A model generated the notes under the pieces. It saw nothing but the letters and a program-made list of their open reading frames with translations. It ran no database searches and had not been told where the DNA came from. Shown piece after piece: positions 46,384 through 49,701 of a DNA stretch of 64,000 nt. Source of the DNA: a virus (Duplodnaviria > Caudoviricetes); IMG/VR virus record IMGVR_UViG_3300031992_000051, positions 31,688 through 95,687 of that record; one strand, given 5' to 3'. Position 1 is the first letter of the stretch. Every line of letters starts with the position of its first letter. The position numbers were made by a program, and so were the translations under genes.

Positions 46384-46800
46384 ATGGAGACCATCGAAAC
46401 CTTCGTCACGCTCTCGGTACACGAGGGCGTCAACGCCGACGGCAAGCCCGTCCGCTTCATCCGCGCCCGCTTCCAGGTCGACGCGGACACCTACCTCACG
46501 GCCTTCAACCCGAAGGGCGTGGCCAAGCTGGAGCTCGTGAAGCGCGTCTCGCGCACCACGGGCAAGGTGCGCACGCAGACGCGCTGGCCGGTGCTCGTGC
46601 GCTACCAGCGCGACACCGTGGTCGGCTCGGACGTCGTGGCCCGCTGCGAGCTGGAGCCGCGCGCCTTCGTGGCCACCGCGATGCAGTCCGCGGACGCGGC
46701 CGACCTCGCGGCCCTCGACGCGGCCGCCGCCAAGCCCGCCCCGGACGCCGCCAAGCCCTCCCAGGCCCCCTCGGAGCCCGCGGAGGAGCCCCTCGCCTAG
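46384..46800 (+). CDS. Hypothetical protein (138 aa), first gene of the plus arm
   Basis: AGGAGG SD, strong codon bias, downstream hairpin. Confidence 0.75.
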   Translation: METIETFVTLSVHEGVNADGKPVRFIRARFQVDADTYLTAFNPKGVAKLELVKRVSRTTGKVRTQTRWPVLVRYQRDTVVGSDVVARCELEPRAFVATAMQSADAADLAALDAAAAKPAPDAAKPSQAPSEPAEEPLA

Positions 46801-46847: not shown

Positions 46848-47069
46848 TTGGAGCGTTTACCCTGACTTCGATTATCTGGGGTGACCGGCAAAGGGGTACC
46901 AAGGCCCATAATTGCAAAAATGGGGTATTTTGGGGGCCTTGGGGAGGGTCGGCGCGGAATTGTGCCAAATTGCCAACGGTATGTTTTCTATTTGTGCCTA
47001 CTTTGTAGCGGAGTACCGAGCGCGGAGCGCCCTGCATTGGCTTTGCTTCCCTTGGTTTCCGAGATGTCC

Positions 47070-47200
47070 CATTTTACTCTATAATATAATTATCTTTAAG
47101 AGTGAAAAAATAATAATATAATAAGGGGGAAAAAGAATAGAATAGCCTATAGGGAAAAGAAAAATTATTTTTCGTAGAATTGCAGAGCAAGTCATATCTT
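47070..47200. other. Extremely AT-rich patch (possible origin unwinding element or promoter/UP region)
   Basis: A/T runs and ATAAT repeats in an otherwise very GC-rich sequence. Confidence 0.5.
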
Positions 47201-47320
47201 GCAAAACGAAGGCATCCAAGATGTACTTCGCTGCGCTATGGCGTCAGTCGAGCACCATTCAAGTGGCGCATAAAGAATTGATGCCGTTGGCGGTTTCGCC
47301 AGACAGTTTTAGCACTTATA

Positions 47321-47662
47321 CGTCCCGTGATGCAAAACGGAAGACATCCCCGGCCGACAGGTCACAGGGGTGGAGCCGATGCAAAACCGGGTTGAGCCGT
47401 GCGCAACAAATGCCGATGCCTAACAGGTGGCACGGTCGGGTAGGGCGGGAGATATAGCGGTCGGCATGACGAGTACCACATTCGATAGCGAGGACTTTGG
47501 CCAATGGCATTTCGCCTTCGCCGTGACTCGAATGAAGAGGAAAGCATGCGGCTGGACCGTGAATTGTACCGTTCCGCTCCGTGAGACTCGGAGTACACGC
47601 GCCCCGACGGTGCGCCTGGAAGTAGTGGCGGCGTGCGGGTTCGATCCCCGCCGGGACGACCA
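47321..47662 (+). ncRNA. 342-nt tRNA-scaffolded RNA (tmRNA-like architecture, Leu-type identity)
   Basis: Perfect 7-bp acceptor CGTCCCG (47321-27)/CGGGACG (47652-58), A73, encoded CCA. Leu-type D-arm ATG-CAAAACGGAAGA-CAT; T-arm GCGGG-TTCGATC-CCCGC; ~280 nt between D- and T-arms. Confidence 0.7.
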
Positions 47663-47821
47663 CTTGGGCTCGACGTTCGTTCGAGGCTTCATGAGCCCAT
47701 TGACAAATAAAGGAGAGACTCGACACGCGGGGATTCGCCGCGCGCAACAAATGAAGGGAGATCGGCGCGCGTGCCGTCCAGACGCAGCCCGGGCCAGCCG
47801 GGCGAGCACGCATTGTCCTTT

Positions 47822-47966
47822 AGGGCACGGCATGAGTCCGCCGAGGTCGCAGGTTCGAGTCCTGCCCGGTGGCTGATGGTGGTAGCCGAGGCGAGGGAAC
47901 CCACTTACCCGACCCGAGACCGGCCGGTGGCGCAGCGGTCGGCGCGCGTGCGGCATGCCGTGTCCT
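47822..47966 (+). ncRNA. Circularly permuted tRNA-like element
   Basis: The 3' half (AGGTC, GCAGG-TTCGAGT-CCTGC, CCGGTGG) precedes the 5' half (CGGCCGG, TG, GCGC-AGCGGTCG-GCGC). The ends pair through AGGGCACGGCATG/CATGCCGTGTCCT. Confidence 0.6.
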
Positions 47967-48118
47967 TTTCATCTTCGCCGCACCCGCGACACGCGTGCGG
48001 ACGCTCGGGGAGCCGACGTGCGGTGGCGCTACGTCGGCCCGGAAAGTCGTCACCGAAAGAAGACGCCGGGGCCAGCAGGACCCCGTGAAAGACCTGCGCA
48101 AGGCGGTGGGAGCCCGCT

Positions 48119-48175
48119 TGCACCTCTCAGGGAAAGCCCGGCGCCGGGCAGGCGGTCCGAGTCCGCGGGGGTGCA
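48119..48175 (+). ncRNA. Mini tRNA-like element
   Basis: 9-bp closing stem TGCACCTCT/GGGGGTGCA stacked on a T-arm-like GCGG-TCCGAGT-CCGC, plus a GCCCGG/CCGGGC hairpin. Confidence 0.35.
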
Positions 48176-48539
48176 TCTTCGATTTCTCGGCCCGCGAGGG
48201 CCTTGGCAACCAACTGGAGGATTCCAAGCGACCCGAGTGCAAACGGGGAGCGCGGCGCCCTCCGATGCTCCACGCCGCGGATATAGCGATGAGGACGGAT
48301 GCCCTTTGCACGGGCACAGGGGCCGCTCCGGCTCCGCGTCTAAGTAGCGGCGAGTCAGCCACGGACGACGGAGCCGTCCCGTGCAACTCTTGTCTCGGCC
48401 CATTCGAGCCGGCAACCTCCACGCTAACAAATGATTCACCGCCTGCGGCCCTTGCAAGGGCGAAGCTGACGTCCCGTGTGGGGCCGATGGGCGGAGGGGG
48501 CGGGCCGGTGGCCGAGACGTTCAACAAAGGAGACCAGCT

Positions 48540-48710
48540 ATGGAAACAACGTACACGCGCAGCTACGAGATCATCCCTCCGATGTTCGACTTCGAGCTGC
48601 CGAGACCGGGCAAGCCGATGAACACCAGGACGCGCAAGACGGCCTGGAGGGAGCGCGTGCGCAGGGCCAACCTGCCCCGCTCCATGCAGAAGCGCCTTGC
48701 CCGCGCGTAA
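48540..48710 (+). CDS. Small basic protein (56 aa, METTYTRSYEIIPPMF...)
   Basis: AAAGGAG SD, ATG 48540, TAA 48708; Arg/Lys-rich C-half. Not in the ORF track. Confidence 0.6.
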   Translation: METTYTRSYEIIPPMFDFELPRPGKPMNTRTRKTAWRERVRRANLPRSMQKRLARA

Positions 48711-49106
48711 GATGCACCCCGAGCGTCCCCGGGGCCCCGGCATGCGGGGGACGCGGACGCTGACCCACTGTGAGGAAGTGGACTGCCGGGAGCTGACCAG
48801 GATAGAGCCAGGCATATCCCATGAGTCCGCTCGATAAACATGGACGCGGGACGCCGATGGAGGCAACGACAGTAGTCTCCGGGCGGCGGGTCTTCGGGCC
48901 CGCCGTCCTCATCCTCTTTGCAAGCCGCGAGCCTCTGGCGGGACCTGCGTACGGGGTCGACACGAGGCAAACCCGGTTCCCCGCGCCATCAATGCGGGCG
49001 TGCGGAGCTCCCCATCTCCAAGAGAATAAACTGTGGGCGGTTGCCCGGCGACCGAGAGCCCCGTCGGGGGTGCGCCGGGAGCTATTTCACCATAAGGAGA
49101 CAAACC

Positions 49107-49181
49107 ATGCCATACGACATTCTGACCGCCTTGACAGTTCTCGTGGCCGCCGCGTGCGTGCTGCGGACGGTGCGGGCGTAG
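49107..49181 (+). CDS. 24-aa hydrophobic peptide (MPYDILTALTVLVAAACVLRTVRA)
   Basis: TAAGGAG SD; single-TM composition. Confidence 0.5.
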   Translation: MPYDILTALTVLVAAACVLRTVRA

Positions 49182-49359
49182 AGCGTCAGGAGAACCCGCG
49201 ACATGTCGACGCGGGGAAGGGCACCGGGGATTGCTTGACTCCCTCCGCCGCCCACGTCATCCGTGCGGAGAACAAGCCGACCTGCCCCCGTAAGGGGCCT
49301 TCGATTTCCGAGACGGTGCGGGTGCATCGTTTCAAGACACAACCGGAAAGGAACAGACA

Positions 49360-49701
49360 ATGAAGAACAAGAGAACAGTGAAGATCGGCGCCGTGTGGGC
49401 GCTGACCGCGTTCGCGACCGCCGCCGCGGTGCATTACGCCGACGCCCCGGAGCGGGGCCAGGCATGGTTCGACGCCATCGAGAGGGTGAAGCCGCTCGTG
49501 GAGAAGTCCGACCGCGCCGTCACGCTCAAGGAGCTGAAGAAACTCCCGACGTGGGCGCTCCAGGAGGTCGCGAAGGCCGCGGCCGAGAGGCCGTTCCAGA
49601 CGCGCCGCTACAAGGTCATCGCCGCCGGGCTGATGACCGAGTTCGAGCGTCGCCGCGCCGACCGCGCCGCAAAGGAGGAGGCCGAGCATGCGTCTGTATG
49701 A
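49360..49701 (+). CDS. Hypothetical protein with N-terminal signal/TM (113 aa)
   Basis: AAAGGAA SD; hydrophobic N-terminus. Confidence 0.65.
   Translation: MKNKRTVKIGAVWALTAFATAAAVHYADAPERGQAWFDAIERVKPLVEKSDRAVTLKELKKLPTWALQEVAKAAAERPFQTRRYKVIAAGLMTEFERRRADRAAKEEAEHASV

What the first reader, a model, noticed from the sequence alone, without database searches (positions are those of the whole stretch)
47280..49350. ~2-kb ornate non-coding RNA locus at the head of the early arm
Seen: in a genome otherwise packed with coupled genes, 2 kb holds only two micro-ORFs, and the codon bias disappears. It has back-to-back helices, GNRA and UUCG loops (GGCCC-GCGA-GGGCC 48189, GGGTC-TTCG-GGCCC ~48890), T-loop-like TGAGA/TGAAA hairpins (~47580, ~48085), three tRNA-like units and pseudoknots. 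It sits just downstream of the AT-rich patch. Known: phages encode large ornate RNAs near tRNAs (GOLLD, ROOL). Inference: a polycistronic RNA cassette, possibly cut into units at tRNA-like punctuation, acting early on translation or host defence.
Basis: partly seen in the sequence, partly recalled or inferred. Interest (0 to 1): 0.75.

Follow-up and report, generated by a model that had tools for sequence, protein, structure and literature searches.

The report
Phage island of tRNA-shaped RNAs
A sheep/cattle-gut phage gives 2 kb in front of its replication-type genes to a row of swappable, precisely folded non-coding RNAs; three are built on tRNA bodies that cannot read codons (one is a 342-base look-alike of leucine tRNA), they match no catalogued RNA family, and they most likely work by imitating tRNA towards host enzymes.

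Summary
Window 47,320-49,100 (+ strand) lacks the strong GC3 periodicity of its neighbours and holds only two real micro-genes (56 aa and 24 aa). It is not one ornate RNA. It is an island of at least seven separately folded modules that are gained, lost and shuffled independently among about 25 related rumen-phage contigs. Covariation, not folding energy, proves structure. Unit A (342 nt) has 38 pairs with compensatory changes against about 20 in shuffles. B1, B2 and E also pass shuffle and slide controls.

Three modules are tRNA-derived. Unit A is a giant leucine-tRNA-shaped RNA with encoded CCA, no anticodon and a roughly 265-nt domain in the variable-arm position. B1 is a circularly permuted tRNA mimic with YrlA topology. 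The 3' end of B2 is an acceptor/T-arm mini-tRNA. The whole genome has no decoding tRNA, tmRNA, Ro60, SmpB, RtcB or CCA-adding enzyme. Rfam (GOLLD, ROOL, tmRNA, tRNA, introns) finds nothing.

Contigs from RNA libraries of four studies cover the modules. Function is inferred, not shown: the RNAs are cut out by host tRNA-processing enzymes and act as tRNA mimics. The scan already found homologous islands on related genomes, and my independent tests agree.

The parts
47078..47125 (+). Conserved AT-rich block (TCTAyaATATA...AGAGTGAAAAAA...ATATA); candidate promoter or other control region at the junction of the two arms
   Evidence: Nearly invariant in 10 relatives while the flanks diverge (alignment A12). 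GC about 0.4. Function not tested.
47261..47277 (+). Conserved box AAGTrGCGCATAAAGAA, about 45 nt upstream of unit A
   Evidence: Conserved in all 10 aligned relatives. In several relatives a 163-189-aa gene lies between this box and unit A.
47321..47662 (+). Unit A: 342-nt giant tRNA-Leu-shaped RNA. Acceptor 5' strand 47321-27, U8 G9, D-arm 47330-47, short hairpin H1 47348-70 in the anticodon-arm position, roughly 265-nt multi-helix domain 47375-47632 in the variable-arm position (includes AACAAAUG at 47405 and a UGAGA T-loop-type hairpin at 47577-93), T-arm 47635-51, acceptor 3' strand 47652-58, A73, CCA 47660-62
   Evidence: Homologues in 16 loci. 15-sequence alignment: 65 pairs, 95.1% of cells paired, 38 pairs with changes on both sides against 19.5 +/- 2.4 in shuffles (0/500) and 9-12 when slid. 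All 7 acceptor pairs covary. U8, G9, A14, A15, G18, G19, U48, the T-arm and CCA are invariant, and A73 is present in 14/15.
47665..47815 (+). Post-A modules: an invariant hairpin 47665-99, an SD-like GACAAAUAAAGGAGAG box with no start codon behind it (47702-24), hairpin 47724-44, a second AACAAAUG (47746), hairpin 47769-47811
   Evidence: Alignment A8, 7 sequences, 6 pairs with compensatory changes. The first hairpin also occurs in relatives that lack unit A (L013, L017).
47822..47968 (+). Module B1: circularly permuted tRNA mimic (YrlA topology). 13-bp closing helix, 5-bp stem, variable loop, T-arm 47849-65, acceptor 3' strand 47866-72, 47-nt linker hairpin, acceptor 5' strand 47920-27, U G, D-arm 47930-47, return strand of the closing helix. 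No anticodon loop and no CCA
   Evidence: 8 sequences, 97.9% paired, 6 pairs with changes on both sides (2/500 shuffles; 0-1 when slid). The T-stem and acceptor stem covary; the acceptor is CGUCCCG/CGGGACG in L027/L022.
47972..48175 (+). Module B2: 148-nt 5' domain (47972-48119) followed by a mini tRNA-like domain. Acceptor 5' strand 48120-26, small hairpin 48137-48, T-arm 48151-67 (first pair G.G; U55 is C in this copy), acceptor 3' strand 48168-74, A 48175. No D-arm, no anticodon arm, no CCA
   Evidence: 8 sequences, 99.1% paired, 7 pairs with changes on both sides against 1.4 +/- 0.9 (0/500). The acceptor covaries (GCGCCUC/GAGGCGC in L036, GCACCCC/GGGGUGC in L010).
48189..48388 (+). Module M1: helix-rich module starting with the GGCCC-GCGA-GGGCC hairpin
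   Evidence: Only 3 near-identical copies (window, L027, L006), so there is no covariation test. GCGA is replaced by UUCG in L006. Structure is not established.
48391..48519 (+). Module M2: closed by a 10-bp helix UGUCUCGGCC/GGCCGAGACG, with the third AACAAAUG (48426) in an internal single strand and a variable inner insert
   Evidence: 5 sequences; the closing helix is kept while the interior differs by a roughly 50-nt insert in L024/L006. Few informative substitutions.
48540..48710 (+). Micro-gene, 56 aa, arginine-rich C-terminal half, RBS AAAGGAGAC at 48526
   Evidence: GC3 0.89. The same ORF occurs in L032 with 51/56 residues identical; it is absent from all other relatives. No Pfam hit.
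48716..48922 (+). Module D: helix-rich stretch ending in the GC-rich UUCG hairpin (48884-48906) followed by a pyrimidine-rich tail
   Evidence: Found whole only in L001; parts occur in L015 and L032. The MFE z-score of -1.97 is the best of all modules. No covariation test is possible.
48923..49092 (+). Module E: ultra-conserved pseudoknotted RNA directly upstream of the 24-aa gene. The hairpin loop 49010-12 pairs with 49035-37. The terminal hairpin is 49044-79
   Evidence: 10 sequences, 99.6% paired. 2 of the 3 pseudoknot pairs and 3 pairs of the terminal hairpin show compensatory changes; 6 such pairs in all against 2.9 +/- 1.0 (1/500). Roughly 95% identical even in L033, whose neighbouring protein is 42% identical.
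49107..49181 (+). Micro-gene, 24 aa, hydrophobic (MPYDILTALTVLVAAACVLRTVRA), RBS at 49094
   Evidence: Kept in 7 relatives with synonymous substitutions and an RBS.
49182..49359 (+). Spacer before the first ordinary gene (49360), with a terminator-like hairpin at 49284-49298 followed by a T-rich tail
   Evidence: Consensus scan; conserved in several relatives. Not tested further.

Best explanation
SHOWN. Window 47,320-49,100 (+ strand) is an island of at least seven independently folding RNA genes or modules plus two micro-protein genes. It lies between a conserved AT-rich control region and the block of small same-strand genes that leads to a helicase. The modules are evolutionary units. Related rumen phages carry different subsets in different orders, with other tRNA-like units, a true tRNA-Gly, an HNH endonuclease gene or a MYG1-type exonuclease gene slotted in.

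Three modules are rebuilt tRNAs that cannot decode. (1) Unit A is a 342-nt RNA with a complete tRNA top half, an encoded A73-CCA end and every known bacterial leucine-identity element. It has a degenerate hairpin where the anticodon arm should be and a conserved domain of about 265 nt where the variable arm should be. (2) B1 is a circularly permuted tRNA mimic with the topology of the bacterial Y RNA YrlA. (3) The 3' end of B2 is an acceptor/T-arm minihelix.

INFERRED (mechanism). The island is transcribed rightwards from the AT-rich region. Host RNase P and 3'-trimming enzymes recognise the tRNA-like domains, and other nucleases act at the short junctions outside each module's closing helix. 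This releases stable RNAs. Because the phage encodes no partner protein, the RNAs would act on host proteins that recognise tRNA shape. Unit A would act on LeuRS (probably becoming leucylated) and possibly EF-Tu, with its large domain as the working part. B1 would act on a host Ro60/Rsr-type protein or other tRNA-elbow binders. The likely purpose is to take over or protect host RNA and translation machinery during infection, for instance as decoys for tRNA-directed defences. What it is: about 0.9. That it works by tRNA mimicry rather than using tRNA shape only as a cutting handle: about 0.45. The confidence figure given is for the whole statement.
For: Non-coding.

Modularity: nhmmer maps over about 25 loci.

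Structure, by covariation with shuffle and slide controls: unit A, B1 (47, 63), B2 (87-89), E with its pseudoknot (66, 80), post-A hairpins (55). The strand is fixed by invariant G-U pairs.

tRNA derivation: all strict T-arm hairpins on the + strand of the genome (2 of 2), and of 20 relatives (39 of 39), lie in this island. Acceptor partners were found in standard, permuted or mini arrangement.

Leucine identity: U8, A14, A15, G18, G19, U48, U54, U55, C56 and A58 are 15/15 and A73 is 14/15, while all acceptor pairs vary. This is the E. coli/Aquifex LeuRS determinant set. The anticodon arm and long variable arm are dispensable for leucylation (PMC9976931).

YrlA likeness of B1: the same T / acceptor-like stem-loop / D order. 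M. smegmatis YrlA, with a 7-bp stem, is cut by RNase P and CCA-tailed (PMC4201824). B1 has GCCGAGG (GCCGAAG in L017) where YrlA has GNCGAAN0-1G.

No phage-encoded partners and no decoding tRNA.

Presence in RNA libraries: contigs from sheep and bovine gut metatranscriptomes of four studies cover unit A, and three of them cover other modules.
Against: No direct evidence exists for transcript boundaries, processing, aminoacylation or any protein partner. RNA-library contigs may contain carried-over DNA, and they show neither ends, strand nor level.

U8:A14, G18G19 and the T-loop are universal tRNA features. Only A15-U48 and A73 are leucine-specific, and RNase P alone could explain conservation of the top half and of the RCCA end. 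One homologue (L018) has G73, a LeuRS antideterminant.

B1 and the B2 mini-domain have no CCA. B1's acceptor has a conserved mismatch or bulge in 6 of 8 sequences. No Ro60 gene lies nearby, and the host, hence its Ro60 status, is unknown. The window's B2 T-loop has C at the position of U55.

The folding energies are no better than shuffles.
Confidence: 0.5

Rival explanations
1. Handles only. The tRNA-like domains serve solely as RNase P / RNase Z cutting and stabilising signals (tRNA punctuation, as with mitochondrial t-elements or MALAT1-mascRNA). They release and protect the other domains: unit A's 265-nt insert, the B2 5' domain, M1, M2, D and E. Those domains carry the real, unknown function, for instance protein sponges or regulators.
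For: The tRNA top half (acceptor + T-arm + elbow), which RNase P grips, is exactly what is conserved. Anticodon arms are lost or replaced in all three units. The B2 mini-domain sits at the 3' end of a larger domain, like mascRNA behind MALAT1. Non-tRNA modules (E, B2 5' domain) are the most sequence-conserved parts. Other notes of this scan read similar phage elements this way (unchecked).
Against: This does not explain why unit A keeps the leucine-specific A15-U48 and A73 plus an encoded CCA. It does not explain why B1 keeps a full D-arm and a YrlA-like 5' motif. It does not explain why a 342-nt RNA should be enclosed by, rather than flanked by, its handle.
Confidence: 0.3
2. Unit A is a working translation RNA. 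It is leucine-charged and enters ribosomes, either as a tmRNA-like rescue RNA or as another non-decoding aminoacyl donor (for example for leucyl/phenylalanyl-tRNA protein transferase).
For: It has tmRNA-like size and layout: a tRNA-like domain, a long irregular helix and a multi-helix body. It has an encoded CCA and a complete leucine identity set.
Against: No G3-U70. No conserved reading frame: the UAA in the hairpin loop is present in 6 of 15 sequences, there are 2-nt indels just upstream, and the hairpin evolves by compensatory changes that ignore codons. ARAGORN and Rfam tmRNA models are silent. The body leaves from the variable-arm position, not the anticodon-stem position as in tmRNA. 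No SmpB in the phage.
Confidence: 0.12
3. One long cis-acting leader. The whole stretch is the structured 5' untranslated region of the downstream operon and controls its transcription or translation (attenuators, riboswitch-like elements). It does not yield separate stable RNAs.
For: Same strand as the downstream genes. Only weak terminator-like sites lie inside. Module E abuts the RBS of the 24-aa gene and ends in a covarying hairpin followed by a U-containing tail. Two micro-genes are embedded.
Against: Modules come and go independently, and E also occurs without the 24-aa gene (L032, L033). Each module has its own closing helix. An encoded CCA end and complete tRNA top halves have no role in a leader.
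Confidence: 0.08
4. No function: a decaying tRNA gene cluster, integration-site remnants, or unrecognised protein genes.
For: Relatives carry a genuine tRNA-Gly(CCC) in the island. L006 holds an internally deleted unit A.
Against: Dozens of compensatory base-pair changes show selection on RNA structure. Some modules are more conserved than the neighbouring proteins. Shadow ORFs are not preserved. There is no integrase context, and acceptor 5' strands up to 330 nt away covary with the 3' strands.
Confidence: 0.02

Closest known systems
YrlA, the tRNA-like bacterial / mycobacteriophage Y RNA (Chen et al. 2014, PMC4201824)
   Same: B1 has the same circular permutation: closing stem, variable region, T-arm, acceptor-like stem closed by a loop, D-arm. 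It has a 7-bp acceptor-like stem like M. smegmatis YrlA, which RNase P cuts. It has a near-match to the 5' GNCGAAN0-1G motif in the same place. It is phage-encoded, as some YrlAs are.
   Different: No Ro60/TROVE gene in this or three related phage genomes, whereas YrlA is defined by lying within 4 kb of Ro60. No Rfam hit at E up to 10. The closing helix is a near-perfect 13 + 5 bp duplex, and the linker in the acceptor loop is 47 nt.
Bacterial class II tRNA-Leu
   Same: Unit A has a 7-bp acceptor stem, U8, a 3-bp D-stem with a long D-loop carrying A14, A15 and G18G19, U48, a canonical T-arm and A73-CCA. This is the full LeuRS identity set listed in PMC9976931.
   Different: No anticodon stem-loop: hairpin H1 varies from tetraloops to 7-nt loops with different triplets. 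The variable 'arm' is a conserved domain of about 265 nt instead of 10-20 nt. Neither ARAGORN nor Rfam calls it a tRNA.
tmRNA, including the two-piece, circularly permuted forms
   Same: Unit A has tmRNA-like size (342 nt), a tRNA-like domain with CCA, and a long helix leading to a multi-helix body. B1 shares the idea of a permuted tRNA-like domain. Some phages are known to encode tmRNA (own knowledge).
   Different: No G3-U70, no conserved tag frame, a true D-stem, the body attached at the variable-arm position, no detection by tmRNA models, and no SmpB gene.
GOLLD and ROOL large ornate RNAs
   Same: Large structured non-coding RNA in phage DNA from the rumen or gut, next to tRNA-type genes.
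   Different: No match to either covariance model. This is a mosaic of 65-340-nt modules, not a single 600-800-nt RNA, and nothing suggests homo-oligomeric cages.
tRNA punctuation elements (mitochondrial t-elements; MALAT1 mascRNA) and the stable RNAs of unknown function in the phage T4 tRNA cluster (own knowledge)
   Same: These are non-decoding tRNA-shaped elements embedded among other RNAs and processed by tRNA enzymes. T4 likewise places unexplained stable RNAs among tRNA genes.
   Different: Here there are no decoding tRNAs at all in the genome. The tRNA-like domains are elaborated (giant, permuted, mini) rather than minimal, and processing has not been shown.

Membership tests
tmRNA (unit A) | tRNA-like domain with acceptor stem, T-arm and 3' CCA | tested here: met
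tmRNA (unit A) | G3-U70 alanine identity pair | tested here: not met
   Position 3:70 is U-A in 9, C-G in 5 and U-G in 1 of 15 sequences.
tmRNA (unit A) | Conserved tag reading frame with resume codon and stop | tested here: not met
   UAA in the hairpin loop in 6 of 15 sequences only. There are 2-nt indels upstream, and the hairpin changes by compensatory pairs, not synonymously.
tmRNA (unit A) | Recognised by ARAGORN / Rfam tmRNA models | tested here: not met
Class II tRNA-Leu (unit A) | Leucine identity set: A73, U8:A14, A15-U48, G18G19, T-loop elbow (PMC9976931) | tested here: met
   All invariant in 15/15 sequences except A73 (14/15) (rule).
Class II tRNA-Leu (unit A) | 5-bp anticodon stem with a 7-nt loop carrying a leucine anticodon | tested here: not met
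   H1 is GACA or GUUG tetraloops in 5 sequences. Elsewhere it is a 7-nt loop with UUU, ACA, UAA or UCU, on irregular stems.
Class II tRNA-Leu (unit A) | Actual leucylation | not testable with these tools
   Needs a LeuRS assay.
YrlA / bacterial Y RNA (B1) | Order: closing stem - (V) - T-arm - acceptor-like stem-loop - D-arm | tested here: met
   compared with PMC4201824.
YrlA / bacterial Y RNA (B1) | GNCGAAN0-1G motif near the 5' end | tested here: inconclusive
   GCCGAGG in 7 of 8 sequences (one mismatch) and GCCGAAG in L017 (exact), just 5' of the T-arm.
YrlA / bacterial Y RNA (B1) | Encoded within about 4 kb of a Ro60 (TROVE) gene on the same strand | tested here: not met
   No TROVE match in the complete genome or in three relatives.
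YrlA / bacterial Y RNA (B1) | Binding to Ro60/Rsr | not testable with these tools
   Host unknown; needs a pull-down.
GOLLD / ROOL | Match to the Rfam covariance model | tested here: not met
   No hit at gathering score in the window or in 13 related loci, nor at E up to 10 in 46,900-49,500.
Group I intron inside a tRNA gene (unit A) | Intron core recognised by RF00028, inserted in the anticodon loop | tested here: not met
   RF00028 finds true introns elsewhere in L009 and L011 but not in unit A. The insert sits after hairpin H1, in the variable-arm position.
tRNA-punctuation element | Non-decoding tRNA top half adjacent to other RNAs | tested here: met
tRNA-punctuation element | Cleavage by RNase P / RNase Z at the element | not testable with these tools
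   Only assembled contigs of RNA libraries were available.

The most novel reading that the evidence does not exclude
Unit A is a new class of aminoacylated non-decoding RNA. It is a 342-nt RNA that host LeuRS charges with leucine because it keeps the complete leucine identity set. Its 265-nt 'variable-arm' domain uses that charged tRNA body to reach EF-Tu, ribosomes or a leucyl-tRNA-dependent enzyme. The neighbouring permuted and mini tRNA mimics capture other tRNA-binding host proteins such as Ro60. Together they would form a phage toolkit of tRNA impostors used in infection.
Probability: 0.2. Interest if true: 0.9.

Novelty: new variant of a known kind. Interest (0 to 1): 0.7.

Why it matters
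Apart from tmRNA, YrlA and a few recently solved small mimics, almost no bacterial or phage RNAs are known that reuse the tRNA body for something other than decoding. This locus gives three different re-engineerings of that body side by side: giant, circularly permuted and miniature. They sit in a phage that carries no real tRNA and no partner protein, and there is enough natural variation to define their folds.

Unit A keeps exactly the nucleotides that LeuRS reads and discards those it does not. That turns a vague 'tRNA-like' label into a directly testable biochemical prediction.

If these RNAs are decoys or hijackers of host tRNA-binding enzymes, they would be a new layer of phage-host conflict. 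The recurrence of similar arrays in other gut and rumen phages (scan notes, unchecked) suggests the strategy may be widespread and so far uncatalogued. The well-defined, highly conserved modules (A, B2, E) are also good targets for RNA structure determination.

Tried and rejected
1. Rfam: gathering score on the window and 13 related loci, and E up to 10 on the locus. Only a chance 16.9-bit hit turned up.

2. ARAGORN on the window, the locus, the whole genome and 21 loci. No tRNA or tmRNA in this genome. The 'tRNA-Val' calls in L002 and L032 are the 3' part of unit A.

3. Folding-energy z-scores: not significant. I rejected this as a useful test at this GC content; it is not evidence against structure.

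4. blastn against 50,697 phage records: no match.

5. Pattern scan of 185,579 prokaryote genomes for the unit-A core: 5 hits, none homologous by profile. No host or prophage clue came of it.

6. Viral-contig scans for the E and B2 cores found only the three IMG/VR relatives already known. My B1 pattern was mis-specified by one base and is uninformative.

7. A covariance model of unit A was not attempted because the model would exceed the calibration limit. nhmmer profiles were used instead.

8. RNAalifold's own fold of the B2 3' end (no T-arm) was rejected in favour of the acceptor/T-arm fold, because only the latter is supported by compensatory changes.

9. Antisense targets in the phage's own genome: the longest exact match is 14 nt, against 13-18 nt in shuffles.

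10. The attP / tRNA-integration remnant reading was rejected because 5' acceptor strands covary at long range.

11. Read depth in RNA libraries: contig depths were higher over the island than over flanking genes, and some runs left flanking genes uncovered. The tool states that contig depth and uncovered parts cannot rank genes, so I draw nothing from either.

12. Pfam and PHROGs on neighbouring and structural proteins gave almost nothing. The host was not identified.
Full report
WHAT IS THERE

The window is the right two-thirds of a complete 95,687-bp virus record with direct terminal repeats and about 67% GC. A long minus-strand arm of large structural-type genes ends at about 45,900. A small plus-strand gene (46,384-46,800) and an AT-rich patch (47,040-47,200, GC about 0.4) follow. 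From 49,360 a tight series of small plus-strand genes leads to a DEAD/ResIII helicase.

Real genes here have GC3 of 0.9-1.0. Between 47,200 and 49,350 that signal is absent except at two tiny ORFs. Both are genuine. The 24-aa hydrophobic peptide (49,107-49,181) is preserved in seven relatives with synonymous changes and its RBS. The 56-aa arginine-rich ORF (48,540-48,710) recurs in L032. The long ORFs that a high-GC sequence inevitably shows have no family match. In relatives they survive only as fragments in changing frames.

RELATIVES

The first ordinary gene downstream (113 aa) has 55 homologues. Through it I fetched about 25 distinct loci from IMG/VR, JGI, ENA and Logan assemblies. Profile searches show that the 2-kb stretch is a mosaic:
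- Unit A occurs in 16 loci.
- B1 occurs in 7, B2 in 7 and E in about 12.
- M1, M2 and D occur in one to five.
- The 56-aa gene occurs in one.

Relatives insert other things at the same place. These include further T-arm-bearing units (up to five per genome), a true tRNA-Gly(CCC) behind an HNH endonuclease gene (L014), a MYG1-type exonuclease gene (L011, L016), and a 163-189-aa basic protein gene just upstream of unit A.

Some modules (B2, E) are about 95% identical between phages whose flanking protein is only 42-58% identical. Each module is closed by its own terminal helix, and short pyrimidine-rich junctions separate the modules.

STRUCTURE IS PROVEN BY COVARIATION, NOT BY ENERGY

Minimum free energies are no better than dinucleotide shuffles: z = -1.7 for unit A and -2.0 to +0.7 for the others. 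Its null result does not refute structure.

Compensatory substitutions are decisive:
- Unit A (15 sequences): 65 pairs, 95.1% of cells paired, and 38 pairs changed on both sides. Shuffles give 19.5 +/- 2.4 (0 of 500 reach the observed value). Sliding the partner columns gives 9-12.
- B1 (8 sequences): 97.9% paired, 6 such pairs against 2.5 (2/500), and 0-1 when slid.
- B2 (8 sequences): 99.1% paired, 7 against 1.4 (0/500).
- E (10 sequences): 99.6% paired, 6 against 2.9 (1/500). This includes a pseudoknot in which the loop triplet CCC / CGG / CCU changes together with GGG / CCG / AGG.

Invariant G-U pairs fix the plus strand as the RNA strand. M1 and D have too few or too similar copies to test.

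THE THREE tRNA-DERIVED UNITS

A strict T-arm search (5-bp stem, G53-C61, UYCRANN loop) finds two sites on the plus strand of the whole genome, both in the island. It finds 39 on the plus strands of 20 related loci, all within 3.5 kb upstream of the anchor gene. ARAGORN accepts only one of all these as a tRNA.

Unit A (47,321-47,662) has these parts in order:
- a 7-bp acceptor stem in which every pair covaries (it is wholly rewritten, GGCGGCA/UGCCGCC, in three phages);
- U8 G9, then a 3-bp covarying D-stem with a 12-13-nt loop;
- a short variable hairpin in the anticodon-arm position;
- a long irregular helix leading into a domain of about 265 nt with nine further helices and a UGNGA T-loop-type hairpin;
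- an invariant U, an invariant T-arm, then A73 and an encoded CCA.

B1 (47,822-47,968) is the same body turned inside out. A 13-bp + 5-bp closing helix leads to the variable loop, the T-arm and the acceptor 3' strand. A 47-nt linker hairpin follows, then the acceptor 5' strand, UG and the D-arm, and the RNA returns into the closing helix.

The last 56 nt of B2 (48,120-48,175) form a 7-bp covarying acceptor stem enclosing one small hairpin and a T-arm. RNAalifold missed this.

None of the three has an anticodon loop. Neither tRNA nor tmRNA is detectable anywhere in the genome.

WHAT UNIT A IS AND IS NOT

It is not a tmRNA:
- There is no G3-U70.
- The candidate three-codon frame ends in UAA in only 6 of 15 sequences.
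- The hairpin that would hold the frame evolves by compensatory pairs, with 2-nt indels beside it.
- tmRNA models are silent, and the body leaves the tRNA-like domain at the variable-arm position.

It is not a tRNA with a group I intron. The Rfam intron model finds real introns elsewhere in two relatives but nothing here, and the insertion is not in an anticodon loop.

Its invariant positions coincide with the bacterial leucine identity set summarised in PMC9976931. That set is A73, U8:A14, the A15-U48 Levitt pair, G18G19 and the G18:U55 / G19-C56 / U54:A58 elbow. The same source states that the anticodon arm and long variable arm are dispensable for leucylation. The parts LeuRS ignores (acceptor pairs, anticodon arm) are exactly the parts that drift. 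This makes leucylation a concrete, testable inference. It is not a result. The universal tRNA features in that list would also be kept for RNase P, and one homologue has G73.

WHAT B1 RESEMBLES

The T / acceptor-like stem-loop / D order, with both RNA ends in a closing stem, is the topology of YrlA. YrlA is the tRNA-like Y RNA of bacteria and some mycobacteriophages. M. smegmatis YrlA, which like B1 has a 7-bp acceptor-like stem, is cut by RNase P and CCA-tailed (PMC4201824). B1 also carries GCCGAGG (GCCGAAG in one phage) where YrlA has its Ro60-contact motif GNCGAAN0-1G.

Membership fails on the defining context. No TROVE/Ro60 gene is present in this genome or in three related ones, and no covariance-model hit was obtained. 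B1 therefore may work like a Y RNA on a host Ro60, but I do not file it as YrlA.

EXPRESSION AND HABITAT

Two sheep-gut metatranscriptome runs hold 91% and 60% of the sampled words of the 4.2-kb stretch. Bovine-gut RNA runs hold small shares. Laid on the stretch, contigs from four different studies cover unit A. In three of them contigs also cover other modules (B1/B2, the 56-aa gene, D or E), from identical or related phages. This places the phage in ruminant guts and shows the sequences are present in RNA libraries. It does not prove transcription, and it gives no ends, strand or level.

PARTNERS AND TARGETS

The phage and two complete relatives encode no SmpB, RtcB or CCA-adding enzyme. No part of the island has more antisense complementarity to the phage's own genome than shuffles do. 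No homologue of unit A was found in 185,579 prokaryote genomes by a core pattern. In IMG/VR the modules occur only in this clade. Any partners must therefore be host proteins that recognise RNA shape.

An unexplained detail: the octamer AACAAAUG occurs three times in the whole genome (about 0.4 expected). All three copies lie in single-stranded parts of modules A, post-A and M2.

MOST LIKELY MECHANISM

The anatomy, modularity, tRNA derivation and lack of decoding capacity are shown. The rest is inferred:
- rightward transcription from the conserved AT-rich region;
- release of the modules by host RNase P and trimming enzymes at the tRNA-like domains, and by other nucleases at the junctions;
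- action as tRNA mimics on host tRNA-binding proteins (LeuRS and EF-Tu for unit A, Ro60-type proteins for B1), with the large non-tRNA domains as effectors.

The main rival is that the tRNA shapes are only cutting and stabilising handles. The two readings differ in whether the leucine-specific positions and the YrlA-like motif matter, which mutagenesis can settle.

RELATION TO EARLIER NOTES OF THIS SCAN

Follow-ups on related genomes called homologues 'a giant leucine-tRNA-shaped phage RNA, not tmRNA' and 'a phage island of tRNA-shaped RNA genes'. I reached the same reading from my own alignments. New here:
- the mini-tRNA at the end of B2 and the covarying pseudoknot of E;
- the confirmation of the two micro-genes;
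- the position-by-position leucine-identity comparison;
- the T-arm census, the partner-gene searches, and the negative antisense and energy tests.

Other notes describe arrays of anticodon-less tRNA-like RNAs in unrelated gut and rumen phages. I did not check them.

VERDICT

This is a real, conserved island of new structured RNA families, three of them non-decoding tRNA derivatives. It matches nothing catalogued, and its function is unknown but now testable. I rate it a new variant of a known kind (tRNA mimics and phage stable-RNA islands), with interest 0.7.

Noticed in passing
L011:3296-3918, L008:3674-4165, L006:3749-4240, L009:4390-4926, L016:2477-2968: Several relatives have a 163-189-aa basic protein gene (no Pfam hit) between the conserved box and unit A, with its 3' end running up to the acceptor 5' strand. 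In L011 the insertion is flanked by a repeat of TTTACGTCCCG, a duplicated start of unit A. The window lacks this gene.
   Followed up: partly
L006:4231-4372: An internally deleted form of unit A of about 140 nt. The tRNA-like ends and the UGAGA hairpin are kept, about 205 nt of the large domain are missing, and the acceptor has an A.A mismatch. It is either a decaying copy or a natural minimal version.
   Followed up: no
L011:4806-5756 and L016:3940-4890: A MYG1-family (UPF0160) exonuclease-like gene sits inside the RNA island of two relatives (Pfam E = 2.4e-9). It is a possible RNA-processing partner that this window lacks.
   Followed up: partly
L014:564-1210: An HNH endonuclease gene is followed by a genuine tRNA-Gly(CCC) directly upstream of unit A. 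This hints that homing-endonuclease-driven exchange shuffles the modules.
   Followed up: no
L024:3150-3450; also L010:982-1145, L018:4881-5040, L032:1878-2020, L033:4416-4560, L016:5173-5330: Further families of tRNA-like units are absent from the window. They are 130-150-nt units with a perfect 7-bp acceptor stem (several with CCA) that contain a second, inner T-arm. There is also a 129-nt unit with about 60 nt inserted in an extended anticodon stem, the only one Rfam scores as tRNA.
   Followed up: partly
window 47405, 47746, 48426: AACAAATG occurs exactly three times in the 95.7-kb genome on both strands (about 0.4 expected). All three are on the + strand in single-stranded parts of three different modules, each just after a GC-rich helix end (GCGC/CGCU). 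It may be a shared protein-binding or processing site.
   Followed up: partly
window 47702-47724: An invariant strong Shine-Dalgarno-like box (GACAAAUAAAGGAGAG) has no start codon behind it in any relative. Its purpose is unexplained.
   Followed up: partly
window 47920-48057: In one bovine-gut cDNA run a 164-nt contig carries Illumina adapter sequence at both ends of the stretch 47,920-48,057. Its left end coincides with the predicted RNase P site at the start of B1's acceptor 5' strand. This comes from a single study and from contig data, so it is no more than a hint.
   Followed up: no
window 48540-48710: The 56-aa micro-protein has an arginine-rich C-terminal half (TRTRKTAWRERVRRANLPRSMQKRLARA), reminiscent of arginine-rich RNA-binding peptides. 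It is present in only two of about 25 genomes.
   Followed up: partly
L009:11883-12104 and L011:10093-10369: Rfam group I introns (65 and 60 bits) lie a few kb downstream in two relatives, next to IS605-type TnpB genes.
   Followed up: no
window 46384-46800: A 138-aa plus-strand gene with no known family is conserved at the junction between the minus-strand structural arm and the AT-rich patch in most relatives. It is a candidate regulator of the switch region.
   Followed up: no
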